Shown: positions 1-60,992 of the stretch, in pieces
How positions within the stretch are numbered: position 1 is the stretch's first letter
How the letters are laid out: each line of letters starts with the position of its first letter
DNA from: a virus
Taxonomy: Duplodnaviria; Heunggongvirae; Uroviricota; Caudoviricetes
Virus record (IMG/VR): IMGVR_UViG_3300015177_000008
Location: 47,519-111,518 of that record
Strand: one strand, 5' to 3'
Length of the DNA stretch: 64,000 nt
Translations under genes and position numbers: made by a program
The notes under the pieces: model-generated
What the model was told of the DNA's origin: nothing
Database searches by the model: none
Seen by the model: the letters and a program-made list of their open reading frames with translations, nothing else

Positions 1-1537
1 CAGGTTTAAACGTCAGTTCAGTTTTGATCTGATCTTTCATTCCCGTGATTGGCTGTCCCTCGGCGTCTCGCAGAGACAGAACCAGCGGCTTTTGCGCACT
101 CCCGTTAGCAAGCATTTGGATACGGCTCTGGCCATCAAGCGTTAACGTAGTACGATCGGCGCTCATACCTGCTCCGGTAATGACCACCGCAGTCTGCACA
201 CGTTTCGAGGCATTGCCTTTGTTATCGTATGCAACCGCAGAGATCGCGTAATAATTGTCTTTGCCTGCACGATAAGCCGGGAGCGTTACTTGCCACTGGT
301 TACCCTGACCGGTAATTTTACCGCCTGCGGCCAGCAAAGACGGTGCTTCCCATTGCACATTTTTCAGGCCGTGAGTTGCTTTGCTGACCACGAGGCCAAG
401 AGACACCGTCTGCCCGCCCTTACCTTCAATACGGTCTGGCAAGGCAATACGGATCACCTCAGCTTTGCGATACTCAAGAACTATATTGTTATTACGTTCA
501 ACCAGATCATATCGGCTGCCTGCCAGTACCCGACGCTCGCGAATGCTGTCTGTATCGAGTTGTTTCTCCAGAGGCTCGCCAATCCGGTAGTTAACTTCCA
601 GGCCAAAGCGAGTGTCATTCTGACCGCTCTTGCCCTGTTTGTGCTCTGCACTCAGTGTCAGAAGAGGCACTGGCGTGTAATTCACTTCAGCGGTAATCGC
701 ATGTGGATCTTTCTGGCGTTTATCTTTACCAAACAGCCCAACTTCATCGCCATAATACTGTTCATACATCAGGCTTGCGCCAAGCTGCGGCCAGGCAGGT
801 AAATAACCCTCAGCACGAATATCCCAGCCATTCGCCGGGCGTTCCTGATAATCCTCAACATCCGGTGATTTTTTCCAGCCAGAAGCCCGGATATAACCAT
901 TGGCGCTCAGCTTAAGATAATCACGCCAGTATTCCGTACCAATACCAATGCGGGTATGACTACGAGATAAATCATGGTCAATAAAGGTATTCACCCCCGC
1001 CATCCAGTCATTACCTGAAAAATGACGCCAGCCAAAACCAATATTTGACTGAGTGCGATCGTCAGTGCGATGTATTGCCCCCTGAGTGAACAGCATATTT
1101 GTCGGCGTGTCATATATCGGATAAAGCATTTCCAGCGAAGAATCCTTCAGCGAGAAATCTTTATCGGCATTCAGTTTGACGCGCGCGGTGCCATATTTCC
1201 CGAGCCACTCCTGGATTTCCTGGGTGGCCTTAGCCGTAGCCATTCCGGTAACAAAGTTGCGAGTCGTATCGCTATCCGGCTGACTGCTTAAAAATTTACC
1301 GGCATTCGCGGCAACCGACGCGATATTTTTTTCTGTATTATTGTCAGTAGCAACCGCAGTATTTTCCGTACTTAGACGTGGCAAAGCCGCATTATGCGCT
1401 TGAGCTGTCATTGACGGTGTAAAAGTGACAGCTAATGGGAAAAGAACCTGAACAGAGATGTTTGCCCATGCCACACATCTAGCCAAGGCGGAATAGCGGA
1501 AACGTTGTTGTTTATAGGTTTTATTTAAACGTAACAT
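1..1537 (-). CDS. Intimin/invasin-family inverse autotransporter, N-terminal part; gene runs off the window start (partial)
   Basis: Minus-strand ORF from ATG at 1537 open to position 1 (not in track because no stop in window). Translation MLRLNKTYKQQRF... contains intimin/invasin beta-barrel-type motifs (YGTARVKLNADKDF, GIGTEYWRDYLKLSANGYIRASGW, GSRYDLVERNNNIVLEYRK). Confidence 0.7.
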   Translation of the reverse strand, partial: MLRLNKTYKQQRFRYSALARCVAWANISVQVLFPLAVTFTPSMTAQAHNAALPRLSTENTAVATDNNTEKNIASVAANAGKFLSSQPDSDTTRNFVTGMATAKATQEIQEWLGKYGTARVKLNADKDFSLKDSSLEMLYPIYDTPTNMLFTQGAIHRTDDRTQSNIGFGWRHFSGNDWMAGVNTFIDHDLSRSHTRIGIGTEYWRDYLKLSANGYIRASGWKKSPDVEDYQERPANGWDIRAEGYLPAWPQLGASLMYEQYYGDEVGLFGKDKRQKDPHAITAEVNYTPVPLLTLSAEHKQGKSGQNDTRFGLEVNYRIGEPLEKQLDTDSIRERRVLAGSRYDLVERNNNIVLEYRKAEVIRIALPDRIEGKGGQTVSLGLVVSKATHGLKNVQWEAPSLLAAGGKITGQGNQWQVTLPAYRAGKDNYYAISAVAYDNKGNASKRVQTAVVITGAGMSADRTTLTLDGQSRIQMLANGSAQKPLVLSLRDAEGQPITGMKDQIKTELTFKP

Positions 1538-2078
1538 TGACATAATTTCTTAATGAACGAGTTAACGAACATTTGCAACTGCGAGTAAAAGCATTTGCTT
1601 CCAGAAATATTTAGATTGGAGTGTCTATGCCCCCAACAGGGCCGCGAATGCTATCACAAACGAAAAAGTGCAACAACACATGAATTAACTGAGATTTAAT
1701 GATTGTTAGGCATCTATAACCAAAATGTTGCAACAACTTAAAATCAATGTTACTTGATAATGTATCCCAAATAACAGGAGGAGCTATTTCAGTACATGAG
1801 AGGATGATTATTCTAACAACATGGGAAGTAAAACATTTTTATTATTACATGATCCATAAATTAGAAATAAATGACCTAAGTCGTGAATAAAGCCTTTTAA
1901 GAAATAAAGTCAGCTCTATATCCAAAAAATAACTTTGAGATAATGAACACTATATCACATACCACATCAATTAATAACAACCTTCTACTTATATAACTTA
2001 GAAGTTGGTAGTTATTTATATAAATGCATTATAGTTTGCAAGTGTTTTTAAATGTTCATTTAACGATACTCATGATTT

Positions 2079-2567
2079 CTAATCAAAATTATTCAGTGCT
2101 TTTTTATTTATCATCTCGAACATTTTTAGTTCATCGTCAGATAATCCCTCCCAAACTTTCTTCATGATTATATTTTGCACACGTATCATTCTTTGTATAA
2201 ATAAAACTCCATCTGATGTTAAACATAAATTTTTACCTCGGCGATCGAGTTCATTATCAACACGTTTGATAAGGTTTTGCTTTTCTAAGATATCTGTAAT
2301 TCGCGTTATATTTGTTTTAGAAACCTGCAACAGGTTACTAATTTCAGATGGGGATAAACAATGACCATCAGTAAAATATAATAATGATAATGCCATAAAC
2401 ATGGTATTGTTTATTTTATGCTTCTCTAGCGCATCTGATATGACGTCCTGCATTTTATTGCTAATCCGGATACATAATTGCATTAGCAAATGCTCCTGAA
2501 CAGGATAATCTGTCTCTTTATTTTTTTGATAATCAAGTATTTTTTCTAGAAAAAGCACGTTTTTCAT
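2079..2567 (-). CDS. MarR-family transcriptional regulator
   Basis: 162 aa ORF with ATG at 2567; winged-helix MarR-like pattern (SPSEISNLLQVSKTNITRITDILEKQNLIKR...DRRGK); AT-rich gene flanked by AT-rich intergenic DNA. Confidence 0.55.
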   Translation of the reverse strand: MKNVLFLEKILDYQKNKETDYPVQEHLLMQLCIRISNKMQDVISDALEKHKINNTMFMALSLLYFTDGHCLSPSEISNLLQVSKTNITRITDILEKQNLIKRVDNELDRRGKNLCLTSDGVLFIQRMIRVQNIIMKKVWEGLSDDELKMFEMINKKALNNFD

Positions 2568-2741
2568 TGTTGTATCCGGTATTGAATAATCATCTCATAA
2601 AAACCATGTAGCCTGTGTGTGATATCTATGTCCCAATGAAACTGGTAAAATAAAGTATAGCAGTTCAAGATTCCTTGCGCCACCTGAATTTTCTACAGAT
2701 AATGCAAAACACATAGCAGTAAAACCTTTCGTTTATAAATT

Positions 2742-3041
2742 TTATTTTTTCCTATAAACATATAGTTCTCCATGCGCTTTCTTTCTGTCTCGGTGTATTC
2801 CCATTTCTTTTTCTATTCGTATCGTAGCTTTACGTAACTCTTTTGATGTGCTAACATCTTTGGCTGCAATGTTTTTTGGCACCGCCTGCTTCATGCAGCG
2901 GCGTATTTGTTCTCTAACATATATTCGTTGGTCTACCTGTCCTTCCTGTCGATAATCCATCAGTACTTCCTGCCAGCGAACAGCAGCCCTGCGCCATAGT
3001 CCTCTTTGCTCAAGATCTTCGGCCTTCTTGTCTCTAACCAT
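2742..3041 (-). CDS. PerC-like small transcriptional activator (putative)
   Basis: ATG at 3041 preceded by GGAGG; 99 aa basic protein with GLWRRAAVRW motif reminiscent of the PerC family. Track ORF 2742..3056 begins at an upstream TTG. Confidence 0.4.
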   Translation of the reverse strand: MVRDKKAEDLEQRGLWRRAAVRWQEVLMDYRQEGQVDQRIYVREQIRRCMKQAVPKNIAAKDVSTSKELRKATIRIEKEMGIHRDRKKAHGELYVYRKK

Positions 3042-3418
3042 TTCCCCTCCAAACAAACGTATGCTACAGATTAACTACCTAAAAATTGAGTTTAACACTA
3101 ACTCATGTAATTAATACTAATGCAAGAAAATATTCACTAATATTTTTATCTTTTAGTTATAAACTAAATTTACATGTGGCTGTTTTGCAAAATGTAGACT
3201 TCCTATATTTTTTATGAAATGATTAGGAAAATAAATTTATTTTATAGCCTTAACACTATGGTCAATACATTTCTTAACACCCAATGCCATCACGAATGAA
3301 CTAAGGAAAAGCGGAATGGCCTTTGACGTTAAAATGCTCTAACTGGAGGTTGTTCATGTGTTTTTCTCTTATCGTTTAGTTACTACATTCTTACACAAAC
3401 CAAGTAAGTGTTTACCTA

Positions 3419-5105
3419 TCATTTAACGCGTTTGAAAACGTATACGCTGACTGTGATCCCTGTGTCTTCAAACTCGTTGGTAAACGACTTCCCTCTGGCA
3501 TAAACGTAATTATCCATCGTCATCCAGTCCAGTATTGGCGCAGTGCCCGGCAATACTGCTACAAGACGCCCGCCGACTTTCAGATGCCCCAGCGCAGCCA
3601 GCGTGTGCTCTCTATGACGACCAAGCGAGTACGGCGGGTTCATAACGATTTTGTCGAACTGATAACCTGCGTTGTCCTCAGACCACTTTATGAAGTCGCA
3701 GCAAATCGTGTTCGTATACCCTTTTCCACGCAGGATATCAGCAAAGAGAGGTGCGATTTCTATGCAGGTAACATCTTCCAGATCGGCGTTAATATAGGCC
3801 AGAAGATCCCCACGTCCGGCTTGAGGCTCCAACAGCTTCTCACCAGGCTTCAATTCAGTGGCTCTTGCAACGTACTCAGCAATCAAGCGTGGGGTAGGGT
3901 AGAACTGGTGTGATTTTGTATCCGGTATTAAACCGGTAGCCACAATCGTATTTAGCGTATGGCCGATGTCATACGGGAACTGCCAGTGCTTTTTCTCCTG
4001 CACGCCGCCAATGAAGCTCAGTGTGCGCTCAAGCTCTTCCACCTGCGACTTCTGGAGAGCTGAATCAGAGAAGTACCATACTCCTTTGTCTTTGCTCAAT
4101 CGCCCGTCACGAAGCGCAGTGCGAACCGGGACGGAGATCGTCTTCTGGATTAGCCCGAACTGCTTTGGTGCCCGTGTTTTTTGGCGCTCTGCGGCATGGC
4201 GCGGGGATTGCTGCAGGCATACTGTAAGCCAGCACCTCATTCAACTTCCAGGCCACGTCAGGATGTATTTCAAAGTGAACGTTGCCGTTCTTGAACATCT
4301 TCACGCGCATCAGATTTCCATCGACGTTCATCCAGTCACCGGTCTGGCAGTCGTTTGCCCGATACGCAGCTGATAGCACCTCAGCAGTGCGGTTGATGGT
4401 AATAAATTCTTTGTGCGCGAAGAAATGAAGCAAAACACGCAGATCGTCGATATAGTCCTCTTTGCGATAGTTCACACTAACGCTGTCCCGCCAGAAATCA
4501 GAAATGCAGTCAGCGATTATCAGACGCTCGCTGAAACCGTTCGTCTTATTTGTCTTGTGCGCAGGACTCAGCGCCTTAAACAAGCCATACACGCGCTCGG
4601 AGAGATATTTGTGCCTGTCATTCAGCAAATTAAGCATCGTTGGTATGACCGTTTCTGCTTTGAACTCCGGTACACCAACGAACTCTTTAACCTTCATCTG
4701 ATAGCCGGTTCTGTCAGTTTTGATGACTTCCTGCTTGCCCTCGATAAATTGCTCACGCCACTCGTCGCGACGGGAAGCTGGCATGATCAGCAAAACGTTA
4801 GTCATATCCGTGACCTTCCTCCAGTACTCGGCCCAAATATTCTGTTTCACCCATTCCAGATCGACTTTATCCAACCAACCTCGATTTAAACGCGAGCGAT
4901 CTTCATCTGGTCGATGGTTTAGTCTCAGCAGGCGATTAATCATGTTGTGGCGTTCGTCGCCATAAACGAAGTCGTGTACCTGATACATGAAGTCGATCTC
5001 TTTCTCGCACTCGGCCACGATTTCGTGGATGACATTCATTTCCTGACGATAGTCGATAGCCGTGTTTGAGCTGGCATCGTCGATGATGGAAAGGGCTGTA
5101 TTCAT
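3419..5105 (-). pseudogene. SAM-dependent methyltransferase-like gene (NPPY motif, DUF4942-like), disrupted by a frameshift
   Basis: Two overlapping minus-strand ORFs in different frames (4107..5105 and 3419..4240). The downstream frame carries EPQAGRGDLL and IVMNPPYS motifs; the tail of the first and head of the second look like out-of-frame sequence. Confidence 0.5.
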
Positions 5106-5209
5106 AATTGCACCATTAAGAAAAGATTTGTTTAATAGTGCAATTATTTCAAAAAATGAAAAGGTACTAAATAGAAATTAACAGGCAATCCTTTAAATAA
5201 AGGTATTTG

Positions 5210-5824
5210 CTAATCATACTTTGAGGTATTTATAACCAGGATTTTGTTTGTATAAATCTTCTTAATATCCCATGTGACGTTACCGGAATACCATTGACCG
5301 TTATATACTTGGTTTCCAGTTGCACCGGTCATAGTTACATAGACAGGTCTGTCGTAATCGGTTCGTCTAAAGTTATAAACCCCAACCATAGCAGGCATTA
5401 CCGCACACGGATACCCCATATCTATTGTAAATTGAGGGTCAGAAATAGTGATAAGTTTCGCATCAAGGGGCATCATCTCACCGTGATACACCATTGCGCC
5501 TGCGCTGTTATACATGGCAATGCCATAGCCAGAATGTGGTAACACCATATCAGAAAAAGCATAAACTGTTATTGTTCCGGGGCTACCATTTACCTGATGC
5601 AATCTGAGAGCATTGTATCCGTTACTATGTTCATGAATAAACATCATGTTCGCCTTATTACTGCTTTTTATGAAGAAAAAGCATGATTTGTTTGATGGGA
5701 TTGATGTTTTAAAAACAGAACCTTTAGATGCAGACATTGTCCCTTTATTAATCAGATTTTGCGGAGTAAATTCAGGACTCATCCACAAACTTCCATCTGA
5801 TTGAGTAATTGACATCCCGAACAT
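5210..5824 (-). CDS. Hypothetical protein, AT-rich, Asn/Tyr/Gly-rich
   Basis: ATG at 5824 lies 2 nt after the stop of the upstream ORF; track ORF 5210..5881 starts at an upstream TTG. No recognisable motif. Confidence 0.4.
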   Translation of the reverse strand: MFGMSITQSDGSLWMSPEFTPQNLINKGTMSASKGSVFKTSIPSNKSCFFFIKSSNKANMMFIHEHSNGYNALRLHQVNGSPGTITVYAFSDMVLPHSGYGIAMYNSAGAMVYHGEMMPLDAKLITISDPQFTIDMGYPCAVMPAMVGVYNFRRTDYDRPVYVTMTGATGNQVYNGQWYSGNVTWDIKKIYTNKILVINTSKYD

Positions 5825-5826
5825 AA

Positions 5827-6108
5827 TTATCCCCAGTATGTGTATATGTAAGAACCAAGCCCCGTATATAAATTTGACCAACTAACCGTATTTCCATTAA
5901 TAGTAACATTTGGAACAGGTAAATTGATGTAGTTGTCGTTGTTAAGAGGCATTAATGACCACACGGCATGTAGTGATTTACCCGGTGGCGGATTAGAGTA
6001 CGTCTTAGAGCCTGATGATGCCGTAAACCGATCAAGAAAAAAAATAGGTGTAAGGAAGCCAGTAACGTTAATTCCTTTATTGTTGTAAATCCCTGTACCG
6101 TATGCCAT
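5827..6108 (-). CDS. Hypothetical protein, AT-rich, Asn/Gly/Thr-rich
   Basis: 93 aa ORF with ATG at 6108; directly followed by the 5210..5824 gene. Confidence 0.4.
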   Translation of the reverse strand: MAYGTGIYNNKGINVTGFLTPIFFLDRFTASSGSKTYSNPPPGKSLHAVWSLMPLNNDNYINLPVPNVTINGNTVSWSNLYTGLGSYIYTYWG

Positions 6109-6162
6109 TTTTCATCCTTGTTTTTATCAACATAATATGGCCGATCATGCGGCCATATCAGA

Positions 6163-6732
6163 TCAATTAGAGCTTTGAAAGGCTTTGTGTGGCTGTGTTG
6201 CGAGGTTATGTCGATGGCTTAACTCACGCATCATGTCTTCAAGGCGACTCTTTGTGTCGTCGAGCTGGTCGGCCATTGCTCCCAAAAGCTGACGAACGGC
6301 CATTGGATCGTCACTGTTTAGTGACGGCATTTTATAACCCGCCTTAGAAGACATCAGATTGAATGCAGACATCAACATTGTTAGAGAAAACTTAAGTCCG
6401 GCAATTTCACGATCTTTGCTGGCAATAATCGTCTCACTTTTGTTACCGTCATGAGTTCCTTGAGTCTCGCTCACCATATCCAAAGTCGCTTGCAACTTAT
6501 CAGCTCTCTCTTTTTCAGCAAGGTAATGAACGCCGAAATGATGTGCTAAAGCTACAACCTGAGTTGGTTCTTCAAAGGTGGAATTAAAATTAAGTACTGT
6601 AAACAGTCTCTCAAATATGGAAACGTCTTCTGTTCCCCGAACAATGCCTAACATTTTGACAAGTTCATTAGCATCCATTTCTTCGAATAGGGCGTTTTGT
6701 TCATCAGCTATTGCTTTGCATTTCTCGCACAT
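6163..6732 (-). CDS. Hypothetical protein (first gene with backbone-type 5' signals)
   Basis: 189 aa ORF; start in the conserved context AAGGAAAACACATG and preceded by a class-1 palindrome. Confidence 0.5.
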   Translation of the reverse strand: MCEKCKAIADEQNALFEEMDANELVKMLGIVRGTEDVSIFERLFTVLNFNSTFEEPTQVVALAHHFGVHYLAEKERADKLQATLDMVSETQGTHDGNKSETIIASKDREIAGLKFSLTMLMSAFNLMSSKAGYKMPSLNSDDPMAVRQLLGAMADQLDDTKSRLEDMMRELSHRHNLATQPHKAFQSSN

Positions 6733-6750
6733 GTGTTTTCCTTAATGCTT

Positions 6751-6764
6751 AAACAAGTTGTTTT
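6751..6764. promoter_or_regulatory. Class-1 palindrome AAACAA-N-TTGTTT (putative operator)
   Basis: aaacaagttgtttt, about 20 nt upstream of the 6163..6732 start on the minus strand. Confidence 0.45.
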
Positions 6765-6871
6765 CTTATGTGCTTTATTGTGATGTGGCATATAAGGGGA
6801 GCAAGCTAAACGTAAAGGTGCAAACTCTCTATTTTGGTCAACGAAACACAAGGGCCATTTGGCCCTTGTCA

Positions 6872-7030
6872 TTAACACGTTGCTTTACGGACTAGCGGAT
6901 AGGCGAAGTAGATCGCCAAACCAATGAGGACGCCATCAGAAATGACAGACATCATCTTTCCCGTGAAATCAACCAACACCGCCATCACCAGAAGAGCAAT
7001 GACGGTCACAAGCCGGAATCTCTCAAGCAT
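6872..7030 (-). CDS. Small membrane protein (52 aa)
   Basis: ATG overlaps the stop of the upstream gene (TAATG); hydrophobic MLERFRLVTVIALLVMAVLV...; below the track size cut-off. Confidence 0.3.
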   Translation of the reverse strand: MLERFRLVTVIALLVMAVLVDFTGKMMSVISDGVLIGLAIYFAYPLVRKATC

Positions 7031-7455
7031 TAGAGATAAGCATCCAGTGACAACTGAAGCGCCTGGGCGATCTTTTTCAGCGCCTGCTCTTCTTGTTCAC
7101 CAATGCCGTCCTGGTCGGCAATATCAAGGCACAGACACAGAACATCGACCGCCTCTGGAGTGCCCGCAATATCAGCCAGCTCACGCATAGCCTGTGCATT
7201 AGCGGAACGAGGGGACGCTTCGTAACGAGCACGGATATTGGCGCTCATTTGGGCAATTTCACCAGCAAACGGAGAAAACGCAGGCAGAGCTGCAATTGTT
7301 TTCTCAAGAATGGCAATTTCTTTTGCGTCACATGTGCCGTCGGCATAGGAGATCATGTACGCGCCCCACACGGTGGCCTCAACCGCATCACGGTTCTCCA
7401 TTTTTTTGACTTCAATAACAGCTTTACGAGTTTTCTTTTTGAAGAAACCTAACAT
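7030..7455 (-). CDS. Hypothetical protein
   Basis: 141 aa ORF; start context GGAAAACACATG; class-1 palindrome upstream. Confidence 0.5.
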   Translation of the reverse strand: MLGFFKKKTRKAVIEVKKMENRDAVEATVWGAYMISYADGTCDAKEIAILEKTIAALPAFSPFAGEIAQMSANIRARYEASPRSANAQAMRELADIAGTPEAVDVLCLCLDIADQDGIGEQEEQALKKIAQALQLSLDAYL

Positions 7456-7478
7456 GTGTTTTCCTTTTATTATTTGTC

Positions 7479-7493
7479 AAAACAAGTTGTTTT
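7479..7493. promoter_or_regulatory. Class-1 palindrome (putative operator)
   Basis: aaaacaagttgtttt upstream of the 7030..7455 start. Confidence 0.45.
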
Positions 7494-7548
7494 CTAGTTT
7501 CATATATTGCTTGCGCAAAGATGGTCAATGCATATGCACTAACAACCG

Positions 7549-7737
7549 TCAGAAATAACCAAGTACCGAACCGACTGGAAAAATAAAAATCCCAACTACA
7601 CGAGCCAAGGTCATGCCAGCCTGAAACTGGAGATCGCCAGAGCAAACAAGTTTTATAATGTTCGATACCCAACCGGCGGCCATGAGGGCCAGAATTGCCA
7701 GCCAAATTTTTCCAAAGTGATTTGAAAACCAGTTCAT
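7549..7737 (-). CDS. Small membrane protein (62 aa)
   Basis: Hydrophobic ORF; start overlaps the stop of 7734..7985 by 4 nt. Confidence 0.4.
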   Translation of the reverse strand: MNWFSNHFGKIWLAILALMAAGWVSNIIKLVCSGDLQFQAGMTLARVVGIFIFPVGSVLGYF

Positions 7738-13469: not shown

Positions 13470-14114
13470 CTAATGAACGGTCACTCGGCCACAGAACCGG
13501 TTTTCTATCTTTTCTACAGCGTTATCTAGCATTCTCATCACTGATCTGGCTCTTGCTTCAACCGTGCGATATCGGTTGGAAACGACGAAGGTTTGCAGAT
13601 CCCCCCTTTGCGGATGCAGGTGAATTTTTGTCAGTTCCCCGCACATCAACGCATCAATACGAGCGACATACAGACGGTCTAATGATGCTCGTTGTGATCG
13701 CAAGTAATCTCGCTCTGAGAGAGCGACTCCCGGGCGTAGGCCAGCAATGGCGTTAAAGTTTGAAATAGCAGTTTTGTGGCAAAACTTTTCGATATCGAGG
13801 GCTAACTCAATACATCGATCTTCATTGGTATGGCCGACCAAATCCAACGTGTAGGCCATAACATCAGCAGGTGTGCGATCGATAACAAAGCCTTCAACAC
13901 CACGCGTAAGTAGCTCTATATGCTTTGCTATTTCCATTTGAATCTGAAGCCGCTCATATAGAGACATAGACTCACCTACTCGAACACCGAGTCGGCTCAT
14001 CAAACTTCCGACACCAGCATCCACGTAAGGGATTCCGTAATGTTTGTCGATATATTTTGCCAGGGTTGTTTTCCCACTGCCCTGAGCACCAGTGATCCCA
14101 ATCCGGTAATCCAT
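13470..14114 (-). CDS. P-loop NTPase, possible nucleotide kinase
   Basis: Walker A GITGAQGSGKTT near the N-terminus; position next to folA/thyA fits a nucleotide-metabolism role. Confidence 0.45.
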   Translation of the reverse strand: MDYRIGITGAQGSGKTTLAKYIDKHYGIPYVDAGVGSLMSRLGVRVGESMSLYERLQIQMEIAKHIELLTRGVEGFVIDRTPADVMAYTLDLVGHTNEDRCIELALDIEKFCHKTAISNFNAIAGLRPGVALSERDYLRSQRASLDRLYVARIDALMCGELTKIHLHPQRGDLQTFVVSNRYRTVEARARSVMRMLDNAVEKIENRFCGRVTVH

Positions 14115-60470: not shown

Positions 60471-60992
60471 GTGAGCAATACGACGATAGAGATTTTCTCT
60501 GGAGAGAAAGATTATGATCTAAACGGTTTTGATTGCGGCGAAGAGTCACTAAACGCCTTTTTAGCCAACCACTTAAAAAGGCAGCATGAGGGAAAAATTC
60601 TTCGTGCTTATGTGCTTTGCACTCAAGAAGAAAGGCCAAAAGTGTTAGGGTATTACACTTTGTCAGGTAGTTGTTTTGAAAAGGAGTCCTTACCTTCACG
60701 AAGCAAACAAAAGAAGGTTCCTTATCGGAATGTTCCAAGTGTTACTTTGGGTAGGCTGGCTTTGGACAAGTCCCTTCAAGGTCAAGGATTTGGCTCAATG
60801 CTTGTAACACATGCAATGCGCGTTGTGTACAATGCATCTCTTGCTGTAGGCATTCATGGACTTTTCGTTGAGGCGTTAAATGACAAAGCCAAGGCGTTTT
60901 ATAAAAGTTTAGGCTTTATCCAGCTGGTTGGTAACAACGAGCGTTCTTTGTTCTATCCTACAAAATCTATCGAAAAATTGTTCGAAGAATAA
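60471..60992 (+). CDS. GNAT-family acetyltransferase toxin (TacT-like)
   Basis: 173 aa with GNAT core (QGQGFGSMLVTHAM...); GTG start 8 nt after the antitoxin stop; hairpin gttcccctca tt tgaggggaac follows. Confidence 0.7.
   Translation: MSNTTIEIFSGEKDYDLNGFDCGEESLNAFLANHLKRQHEGKILRAYVLCTQEERPKVLGYYTLSGSCFEKESLPSRSKQKKVPYRNVPSVTLGRLALDKSLQGQGFGSMLVTHAMRVVYNASLAVGIHGLFVEALNDKAKAFYKSLGFIQLVGNNERSLFYPTKSIEKLFEE

What the first reader, a model, noticed from the sequence alone, without database searches (positions are those of the whole stretch)
5210..6108. Two adjacent AT-rich genes encoding Asn/Tyr/Gly/Thr-rich proteins of unknown function at the cargo-backbone junction
Composition and amino-acid bias differ from both the island-like genes and the backbone; the stop of the first is 2 nt from the ATG of the second. 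No motif I recognise.
Basis: seen in the sequence. Interest (0 to 1): 0.4.

Follow-up and report, generated by a model that had tools for sequence, protein, structure and literature searches.

The report
Displaced two-gene phage receptor-binding module
The two odd-looking genes are real and belong to a known, little-studied family of small phage proteins thought to sit on the tail tip and bind the bacterial receptor, but here they lie about 45 kb from the tail genes of an E. coli phage-plasmid.

Summary
On the minus strand there are two ORFs of 93 aa (6108-5830) and 204 aa (5824-5213), 2 nt apart. They are AT-rich and rich in N/Y/G/T. The window is an SSU5-like E. coli phage-plasmid.

Both genes are under strong purifying selection (dN/dS about 0.07-0.10). 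They were adjacent in all 80 related loci that carry a full-length ORF2. They match PHROG 557 and PHROG 425.

In relatives the pair lies directly after the central tail-fibre (gpJ-like) gene, often with a Cor-like exclusion lipoprotein. These relatives include:
- Nonagvirus JenP1/JenP2;
- T1-like phages that use BtuB or FhuA;
- SSU5 itself;
- Stx phages, where the phi24B homologue gp54 is found in virions.

Here the pair is a roughly 1-kb cassette inserted between two backbone genes, with no Cor partner. It is the only such pair in this plasmid type.

Most likely it is the tail-tip receptor-binding module, acting in trans on the J protein. This is inferred, not shown. A programmed frameshift and a membrane-protein role are both rejected.

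It is a new member of a known kind, of moderate interest.

The parts
5827..6108 (-). ORF1: a 93-aa small beta-sandwich protein (PHROG 557), the proposed tail-proximal subunit of the module. Coding 6108-5830, stop 5829-5827.
   Evidence: ORF; phrog_557, E 6e-29; homologues, C-terminus conserved to the last residue; AF2 pLDDT 82.5, all-beta; dN/dS 0.076; aligns to residues 1-85 of ~315-aa single-chain relatives, hhalign 95%.
5210..5824 (-). ORF2: a 204-aa two-domain all-beta protein (PHROG 425), the proposed receptor-contacting subunit. Coding 5824-5213, stop 5212-5210.
5237..5389 (-). Codons 146-196 of ORF2: the segment replaced between clades, a candidate receptor-specificity region.
   Evidence: This segment is 9-13% identical to BtuB-type proteins, while the rest of the protein is 36-62% identical. 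Two BtuB-type proteins from different phage genera are 69% identical here. It is 58% identical to phi24B gp54 and 80% to JenP2.
5822..5835 (-). Coupling junction TGG GGA TAA TT ATG. A GGGGA Shine-Dalgarno-like run (5834-5830) lies inside the last two codons of ORF1, 5 nt before the ATG of ORF2.
   Evidence: sequence; of 21 distinct junctions, the 15 printed before the script stopped all end in TGGGG[AG] (TGGAGG in L028) followed by a stop and a gap of 2 or 5 nt.
6106..6119 (-). Ribosome-binding site of ORF1: AAGGA (6119-6115), a 6-nt spacer, then ATG (6108-6106).
   Evidence: Read from the sequence.
6135..6158 (.). Perfect 9-bp inverted repeat with a 6-nt loop (ATATGGCCG atcatg CGGCCATAT), between the stop of the upstream 189-aa gene and ORF1. 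It lies inside the inserted segment and replaces the GGGGGC-TTTC-GCCCCC hairpin of the empty site. Its role is unknown (terminator or regulatory).
   Evidence: sequence; comparison with the empty site. One search did not call it a canonical terminator and found only a weak promoter-like match overlapping it.
5165..6183 (.). Approximate extent of the ~1.0-kb two-gene cassette, relative to the empty site of E. albertii plasmid pEA11_2.
   Evidence: homology to the empty site stops near 5164 and resumes near 6184; only the coding part (5210-6114) is similar to JenP1/JenP2/BRET, at 76% nt identity.

Best explanation
The two genes encode a two-subunit tail-tip receptor-binding module of the SSU5-like phage-plasmid.

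Proposed mechanism:
- They are translated as a coupled pair, with the Shine-Dalgarno sequence of ORF2 lying inside the end of ORF1.
- Together they are the split equivalent of the single-chain receptor-binding proteins of about 310-320 aa found in small siphoviruses.
- ORF1 corresponds to the N-terminal, tail-proximal part. ORF2 corresponds to the two distal domains, and its residues ~146-196 probably carry receptor specificity.
- The proteins are made in the cytoplasm during lytic growth.
- They dock non-covalently on the conserved C-terminal domain of the trimeric central tail fibre (J-like protein), whose gene lies about 45 kb away.
- They then bind an outer-membrane protein of E. coli as the terminal receptor.

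Shown here: the genes are real and under selection; the family assignment; the synteny in relatives; the collinearity with single-chain forms; the cassette insertion; the absence of another such pair in this plasmid type.

Inferred: virion association, docking on J, receptor binding and the identity of the receptor.
For: 1. Family. PHROG 557 and 425 match strongly. The pair is adjacent in all 80 loci with a full ORF2. dN/dS is 0.07-0.10.

2. Position in relatives. The pair lies immediately after the gpJ-like gene in Nonagvirus JenP2 and in Warwickvirus tiwna, where a lipoprotein accompanies it. The same holds for a lambdoid prophage with a Cor-like lipoprotein, for SSU5 genes 023/024 followed by Cor, and for Stx phages Min27 and phi24B after the needle gene.

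3. Link to receptors. Maffei 2021 matched alleles of this locus to terminal receptors 'without exception'. FritzSarasin (Bas04) and KarlJaspers (Bas06) both use BtuB and carry the tiwna-type pair. Profiles of ORF1 and ORF2 also detect the pairs of the FhuA phages Bas05 and Bas07.

4. Virion evidence in a 62%-identical homologue. phi24B gp54 is present in the virion proteome, and there is extra density at the needle tip (identity). AF2-Multimer docking on the spike tip was reported by Matusiak 2025.

5. Collinearity. ORF1 aligns to residues 1-85 and ORF2 to residues 100-307 of ~315-aa proteins (hhalign 95% and 99.3%). One of these proteins sits right after a J C-terminus and next to a lipoprotein and a lateral fibre.

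7. The J protein of this plasmid type ends in the same kind of C-terminal domain (...VYDDNNVLRVRIGQL) as the J proteins that are followed by such pairs. No other PHROG 557/425-like gene exists in the window or in the rest of the near-identical plasmid.

8. The Cyrano homologues CYRAN_88/89 are near background in the lysogen transcriptome and were not scored as morons.
Against: - The pair is not next to the tail genes here, and no Cor-like lipoprotein accompanies it.
- Some E. coli phage-plasmids carry both this pair and an SSU5_023/024-type pair at the tail locus. So this pair is not always the only candidate RBP.
- The J C-terminus is 87% identical to that of SSU5, whose own pair is only about 27-30% identical to this one. 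J and the pair therefore do not co-vary tightly.
- Foldseek against the PDB did not recover the Oekolampad RBP. Sequence profiles do not link ORF2 to DUF6453 (Pfam 15.1 bits against a cutoff of 25; hhalign 6%).
- The ORF1 model has no significant structural neighbour.
- No two-gene RBP of this family has yet been shown biochemically to bind a receptor. phi24B gp55, the ORF1 homologue, was not detected in virions.
Confidence: 0.6

Rival explanations
1. The proteins are tail-tip structural or assembly factors (adaptor or chaperone for the central fibre) that do not themselves determine the receptor.
For: [quoted passage not shown] The ORF1 fold is a generic beta sandwich. The N-terminal two thirds of ORF2 is conserved across receptor classes.
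Against: Alleles of this locus track receptor specificity. ORF2 carries a clade-replaced segment that is conserved among phages using the same receptor. The single-chain counterpart at the same locus binds LptDE directly.
Confidence: 0.15
2. The cassette encodes a functional RBP, but for this element it is spare cargo. It would be a horizontally acquired alternative specificity module that this phage's J protein does not need or use.
For: It is a discrete ~1-kb insertion absent from some relatives. It occurs in about 120 plasmids, fewer than either flank (172 and 390). Some plasmids carry two pairs. Its closest relatives are in virulent Nonagvirus phages.
Against: Purifying selection acts within the phage-plasmid lineage itself (window against PhiR41_1, dN/dS 0.08-0.10). 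The plasmid type of this window has no other candidate RBP, and its J protein lacks an added receptor domain.
Confidence: 0.12
3. They are lysogenic-conversion (moron) proteins located in or at the outer membrane, as the database names 'outer membrane protein' and 'membrane associated protein' suggest.
For: PHROG and RefSeq product names. The location is near AT-rich virulence-type cargo.
Against: There is no signal peptide, lipobox or hydrophobic span; the maximum Kyte-Doolittle 19-residue mean is about 1.0. Matusiak 2025 computed low predicted membrane affinity for homologues. In Cyrano the genes are not expressed above local background in the lysogen. The ORF2 homologue (phi24B gp54) is found in virions.
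Confidence: 0.04
4. The two ORFs are one gene joined by a programmed -1 ribosomal frameshift. ORF2 is in the -1 frame of ORF1, its frame is open 19 codons upstream of its ATG, and a heptamer A_AAT_TTA lies in the overlap.
For: The frame relation and the heptamer at -50 are real in this lineage. Single-chain homologues exist.
Against: The heptamer is absent from JenP, Stx and other clades. The C-terminus of ORF1 (…GLGSYIYTYWG) is conserved in its own frame to the stop codon, whereas the overlapping frame is not. A conserved Shine-Dalgarno sequence and ATG follow the stop.
Confidence: 0.02

Closest known systems
phi24B (Traversvirus tv24B) vb_24B_41/42, called gp55/gp54 in bioRxiv 10.64898/2026.04.10.717836, and their equivalents in 933W/Min27-type Stx phages
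   Same: Same two-gene family: ORF2 is 62% identical and ORF1 about 65%. Order and coupling are the same, and ORF2 is about 204 aa. gp54 was detected in virions, and the pair has been proposed as the BamA-binding tip of the needle.
   Different: In Stx phages the pair follows the needle gene directly and precedes lom. The virion is a podovirus. Here the pair is about 45 kb from the J gene of a siphovirus-type phage-plasmid.
BtuB- and FhuA-type 'bona fide RBP loci' of T1-like phages (FritzSarasin Bas04, KarlJaspers Bas06, PeterMerian Bas05, JakobBernoulli Bas07; Maffei 2021)
   Same: Homologous pair of a small (~90-103 aa) and a medium (~197-223 aa) protein. The J protein has the same kind of C-terminal domain.
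   Different: ORF2 is 40% identical or less, and its residues 146-196 are essentially unrelated (9-13%). Those loci include a cognate exclusion lipoprotein and adjoin gpJ.
Rtp44 / RBP of Oekolampad (Pfam DUF6453), the LptDE-binding RBP (PDB 9rpt, PMC12685063)
   Different: It is a single polypeptide. Sequence membership fails and Foldseek does not support the match. There is no evidence that the receptor here is LptD.
SSU5_023 / SSU5_024 / Cor of Salmonella phage SSU5
   Same: The phage-plasmid backbone is the same, and the pair is homologous (profile E 5e-11 and 1e-21).
   Different: The SSU5 pair lies at the tail locus, upstream of the holin and together with Cor. It is only about 27-30% identical. 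Some E. coli plasmids carry both types.
T5 pb5 with Llp
   Same: A functional analogue: a separate RBP attached non-covalently to the tip of the central fibre, encoded beside a superinfection-exclusion lipoprotein (as described).
   Different: No sequence or fold relation was found here. pb5 is one large protein.

Membership tests
PHROG 557 + PHROG 425 pair (small and medium proteins of the RBP locus downstream of gpJ) | Sequence match of the two proteins to the two family profiles | tested here: met
   phrog_557 E 6.1e-29 over residues 1-93; phrog_425 E 3.5e-72 over residues 1-204.
PHROG 557 + PHROG 425 pair (small and medium proteins of the RBP locus downstream of gpJ) | Small gene directly upstream of the medium gene, on the same strand and closely coupled | tested here: met
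   All 80 fetched loci with a full ORF2 have ORF1 immediately upstream. In the 15 junction types printed, the gap is 2 or 5 nt.
PHROG 557 + PHROG 425 pair (small and medium proteins of the RBP locus downstream of gpJ) | Location immediately downstream of the central tail-fibre (gpJ-like) gene | tested here: not met
   In the near-identical plasmid NZ_CP117002 the J gene is at 39.7-43.9 kb and the pair at 86.9-87.8 kb. The feature is met in JenP2, tiwna, L079, SSU5, Min27 and phi24B.
PHROG 557 + PHROG 425 pair (small and medium proteins of the RBP locus downstream of gpJ) | Cognate superinfection-exclusion lipoprotein (Cor/Llp-like) next to the pair. This is frequent but not universal. | tested here: not met
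   No Cor or tiwna-gp41 homologue was found in the window or in the rest of the plasmid. It is also absent from JenP2.
PHROG 557 + PHROG 425 pair (small and medium proteins of the RBP locus downstream of gpJ) | Presence in the virion and binding to a terminal receptor | not testable with these tools
   Only indirect evidence exists: phi24B gp54 in the virion proteome and the allele-receptor match of Maffei 2021.
Pfam DUF6453 (Rtp44 / Oekolampad RBP, LptD-binding) | Score above the Pfam gathering threshold | tested here: not met
   ORF2 scores 15.1 bits against a cutoff of 25, and ORF1 has no hit. The Oekolampad RBP scores 405 bits. hhalign against a 7-sequence DUF6453 alignment gives probability 6%.
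Pfam DUF6453 (Rtp44 / Oekolampad RBP, LptD-binding) | Shared fold with the solved structure 9rpt chain C | tested here: inconclusive
Outer-membrane or membrane-associated proteins (the names given in databases) | Signal peptide, lipobox, transmembrane span or beta-barrel | tested here: not met
   The N-termini MAYGTGIYNNKG and MFGMSITQSDGS have no signal-like region. The maximum 19-residue hydropathy is 0.94 and 1.10. The models are soluble beta sandwiches.
Programmed -1 frameshift gene pairs | A slippery heptamer conserved in the overlap, and coding constraint on the shifted frame | tested here: not met
   A_AAT_TTA occurs only in the phage-plasmid lineages. The ORF1 frame is conserved up to its stop codon.
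Lambda gpJ C-terminal receptor-binding (Ig-like) domain, proposed for the small protein by Matusiak 2025 | Significant structural similarity of ORF1 to the gpJ C-terminal domain | tested here: inconclusive

The most novel reading that the evidence does not exclude
The pair is a self-contained, mobile 'receptor-specificity cassette'. It can be dropped anywhere in a phage genome because its products dock in trans on a J/needle C-terminal domain shared by siphoviruses, Stx podoviruses and phage-plasmids. Phage-plasmids that carry two such pairs would then make virions with two alternative terminal receptors. This clade (JenP, Stx phages, E. coli SSU5-like elements) may target BamA rather than BtuB or FhuA.
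Probability: 0.25. Interest if true: 0.6.

Novelty: new member of a known kind. Interest (0 to 1): 0.35.

Why it matters
SSU5-like phage-plasmids are common in E. coli and carry virulence and resistance cargo, yet it is not known how they recognise their hosts. Assigning this pair to the tail-tip receptor-binding family gives a concrete gene target for predicting or changing their host range.

The assignment also ties these elements to the unresolved question of which protein of Stx phages binds BamA, because the homologues are 62% identical.

The displaced position shows that such modules need not sit in the tail operon. Annotation pipelines and host-range predictors that look only beside gpJ would therefore miss them. 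The database names 'outer membrane protein' and 'membrane associated protein' are probably wrong.

Tried and rejected
1. Programmed -1 frameshift joining the two ORFs. The frame relation and a heptamer exist here, but they are not conserved, and ORF1 is constrained to its own stop codon.

2. Membership of DUF6453. It fails by Pfam, by hmmsearch and by hhalign.

4. The three modules (ORF1, ORF2 N-terminal half, ORF2 C-terminal half) as internal repeats. Only a short N-terminal motif recurs, and hhalign probabilities are 0.2-7%.

5. A sequence search of solved structures with the ORF2 profile. Nothing found, even at E <= 10.

6. NCBIfam and PADLOC. No hits for either protein.

7. The idea that this pair and the SSU5-type tail-locus pair exclude each other. 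Refuted by plasmids that carry both.

8. Promoter and terminator scan. Nothing convincing around the pair.

9. Receptor of JenP1/JenP2. Not stated in any text I could read.

Full report
**What is there**

The finding lies on the minus strand. ORF1 runs from ATG 6108 to 5830, with stop TAA at 5829-5827 (93 aa). ORF2 starts 2 nt later at ATG 5824 and ends at 5213, with its stop at 5212-5210 (204 aa). ORF1 has a good ribosome-binding site (AAGGA, then 6 nt, then ATG). The last two codons of ORF1 (TGG GGA) form a GGGGA run 5 nt before the ATG of ORF2.

GC is 38.8% against 45.3% for the window. N, Y, G, T and S are enriched and E is almost absent.

**The element**

The region is 95-99.9% identical to about 120 non-mobilizable E. 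coli and Shigella plasmids of 100-120 kb. It is also close to phages Cyrano, CMS-2020a and PhiR41_1. These are SSU5-like phage-plasmids. The window also holds SSU5-type holin and endolysin genes.

**The genes are real**

- Against PhiR41_1, a second phage-plasmid lineage, dN/dS is 0.076 for ORF1 and 0.100 for ORF2.
- Full-length homologues reach down to about 40-50% identity. A profile search of 1.8 billion representatives found 114 relatives.
- In all 80 fetched loci that carry a full ORF2, ORF1 lies immediately upstream.
- In the 15 junction types printed (of 21 distinct), ORF1 ends in TGGGG[AG] (TGGAGG in one) plus a stop, and the gap is 2 or 5 nt.

**Not a frameshift gene**

ORF2 is in the -1 frame of ORF1, and a heptamer A_AAT_TTA lies in the overlap. 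That heptamer exists only in the phage-plasmid lineages. The C-terminus of ORF1 (GLGSYIYT[YF]W[GR]) is conserved in its own frame up to the stop codon. The arrangement is ordinary translational coupling.

**What family it is**

ORF1 matches PHROG 557, named 'outer membrane protein' (E 6e-29). ORF2 matches PHROG 425, named 'membrane associated protein' (E 3.5e-72). Neither protein has a signal peptide, a lipobox or a hydrophobic span. Both AF2 models are soluble all-beta proteins:
- ORF2: pLDDT 83.8, two domains with a weak linker at residues 93-98.
- ORF1: pLDDT 82.5.

The database names are therefore not supported.

**Where the family lives**

In relatives the pair sits directly after the gene for the central tail fibre.

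| Phage or locus | Arrangement |
|---|---|
| Nonagvirus JenP2 | Opposite strand, converging on J |
| Warwickvirus tiwna | Lipoprotein, small gene, medium gene, converging on J |
| Lambdoid prophage L079 | Same as tiwna |
| SSU5 | 023, 024, then Cor, then holin |
| Stx phages Min27 and phi24B | Needle gene, small, medium, then lom |

[quoted passage not shown] 2021. They matched its alleles to terminal receptors 'without exception' and proposed dedicated RBPs attached non-covalently to the J-like protein.

I checked this on their phages:
- FritzSarasin (Bas04) and KarlJaspers (Bas06) both use BtuB and carry the tiwna-type triad.
- The FhuA phages Bas05 and Bas07 carry a small-plus-medium pair that the ORF1 and ORF2 profiles still detect (E 9e-8 and 3e-3 for the small proteins, 2.5e-11 and 1.6e-12 for the medium ones).
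- The YncD allele (Bas10) and the LptD allele (Oekolampad) are not detected by sequence.

**Literature on close homologues**

Matusiak et al. 2025 modelled the same two proteins of phi24B, a Dhillonvirus and a Littlefixvirus. They found low predicted membrane affinity and, with AF2-Multimer, docking of the 'hand-like' medium protein on the tip of the spike trimer.

A 2026 preprint on phi24B found gp54 (204 aa) in the virion proteome and extra density at the needle tip. It proposed gp54, with or without gp55, as the BamA-binding protein. gp55 itself was not detected.

Window ORF2 is 62% identical to that protein.

**Split against fused**

About ten relatives of 309-325 aa align collinearly with the pair. 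ORF1 aligns to residues 1-85 (hhalign 95%, E 4e-8) and ORF2 to residues 100-307 (99.3%, E 6e-21). One of them, P0080, starts at the stop codon of a J-like gene. It is followed by a small lipoprotein, a lateral fibre and a Caudo_TAP chaperone. The pair is thus the two-chain form of a one-chain protein encoded at the same locus.

**Relation to the only solved RBP of this locus**

ORF2 itself is not a DUF6453 member:
- Pfam gives 15.1 bits against a cutoff of 25.
- hhalign against a DUF6453 alignment gives 6%.
- Foldseek finds nothing.

I treat the resemblance as positional and probably structural. It is not membership.

**The locus in this element**

The left neighbour is a DUF4942-methyltransferase gene and the right neighbours run from a 189-aa gene to RNase H. 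Both flanks occur in more plasmids than the pair does: 390 and 172 records at >=80% coverage, against 119.

E. albertii plasmid pEA11_2 has the two flanks abutting, with a 140-nt spacer. Alignment places the insertion at about 5165-6183. Only the coding part resembles JenP1/JenP2/BRET, at 76% nt identity.

So the pair is a roughly 1-kb cassette inside the backbone, one gene away from the AT-rich cargo.

In the near-identical plasmid NZ_CP117002:
- The J gene lies about 45 kb away.
- The tail locus holds lateral-fibre genes but no PHROG 557/425 pair and no Cor.
- J ends in the same kind of C-terminal domain (…VYDDNNVLRVRIGQL) as the J or needle proteins of JenP2, tiwna, SSU5 and Min27.

Phages with DUF6453-type RBPs have a different J ending (…GGRVxxGxW/F).

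**Complications**

Some E. coli phage-plasmids (pHH107-1, CP056788) carry this pair and also an SSU5_023/024-type pair at the tail locus. The J C-terminus here is 87% identical to that of SSU5, although the two pairs are only about 27-30% identical.

**Specificity region**

Across clades, residues 146-196 of ORF2 are replaced while the rest of the protein is kept.

| Comparison | Identity in 146-196 | Identity elsewhere |
|---|---|---|
| Window vs BtuB-type proteins | 9-13% | 36-62% (up to 75% in the 8-residue C-terminal segment) |
| Two BtuB-type proteins from different genera | 69% | 59-68% |
| Window vs phi24B gp54 | 58% | 58-87% |
| Window vs JenP2 | 80% | 71-100% |

This points to that segment as the determinant of specificity. 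It also suggests that this clade does not use BtuB.

**Expression**

In the LF82 lysogen, the Cyrano homologues CYRAN_88/89 are near the local background in LB and were not among the 13 morons scored. This fits a lytic-cycle gene but is weak evidence.

**Verdict**

The pair is a member of the known, poorly characterised two-protein family of tail-tip RBP loci. Most likely (about 0.6) it serves as the receptor-binding tip of this phage-plasmid's central fibre, acting in trans.

What is unusual is its position outside the tail module, the lack of an exclusion lipoprotein, and the coexistence of two such modules in some relatives.

Noticed in passing
window 3419-5105 (- strand); indel at about 4172-4177: The DUF4942-methyltransferase gene is a single 561-aa ORF (1686 nt) in Cyrano, PhiR41_1 and pEA11_2. 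In the window it has one extra T in a T-run, which splits it into overlapping ORFs of 332 aa and 273 aa. This could be a pseudogene, a homopolymer sequencing error or a phase-variable site. The 100%-identical plasmid has no annotated gene here.
   Followed up: partly
window 5105-5146: An inverted repeat (ATAATTGCACCATTAA…TTAATAGTGCAATTAT) lies just upstream of the DUF4942 gene start. The empty-site plasmid keeps it with changes on both arms (ATAATTACACCATTAA…TTATTGGTGTAATTAT). It may be an operator or an RNA hairpin.
   Followed up: no
L094 (NZ_CP116406.1, pHH107-1) 6205-7067; also CP056788.1: Some E. coli SSU5-like phage-plasmids carry two RBP-type pairs. One is an SSU5_023/024-like pair at the tail locus upstream of the holin. 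The other is the pair of this finding, at the DUF4942 locus. This raises the possibility of two alternative receptor specificities.
   Followed up: partly
L083 (SSU5) 7001-7609; L097 (phi24B) 13827-14105: Two start codons of homologues look mis-annotated. SSU5_024 probably starts 14 codons earlier (MYGSKIVRSDGKVWMSP…), right after the stop of 023. phi24B vb_24B_41 ('gp55, 75 aa') extends to 92 aa from a TTG start and then aligns with ORF1 from residue 1.
   Followed up: partly
ORF1 residues 3-21; ORF2 residues 2-21 and 99-120; Oekolampad RBP residues 2-25 and 212-235: A motif [FY]G-x-x-[IL]-x-x-x-x-G-x-x-[VW]…P recurs at the start of each of the three modules and also in DUF6453 proteins. Profile comparisons do not support a full domain duplication (hhalign 0.2-7%).
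   Followed up: partly
C-termini of J-like proteins in L002, L079, L082, L083, L084, L086, L089-L091: The last ~15 residues of the central fibre fall into subtypes that go with the type of RBP encoded next to it. The ending …[DN]G.LRV.[IV]G.. goes with two-gene pairs, and …GGR[VI].[VL]G.[WF] goes with DUF6453 single-chain RBPs. This would fit a docking interface.
   Followed up: partly
window 1-3400: This is a very AT-rich stretch (26-33% GC at 1600-3400). By comparison with NZ_CP117002 it carries MarR-family and PerC-family regulator genes and the 5' part of a 4.2-kb inverse-autotransporter (intimin/invasin-like) gene. It is virulence-type cargo on a phage-plasmid.
   Followed up: no
window 60471-60992 and upstream: A GNAT-family acetyltransferase toxin gene with a DUF1778 antitoxin gene (KacT/KacA-like) sits next to the lysis cassette. 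In Cyrano the KacT-type toxin and its antitoxin are among the lysogeny-expressed morons.
   Followed up: no
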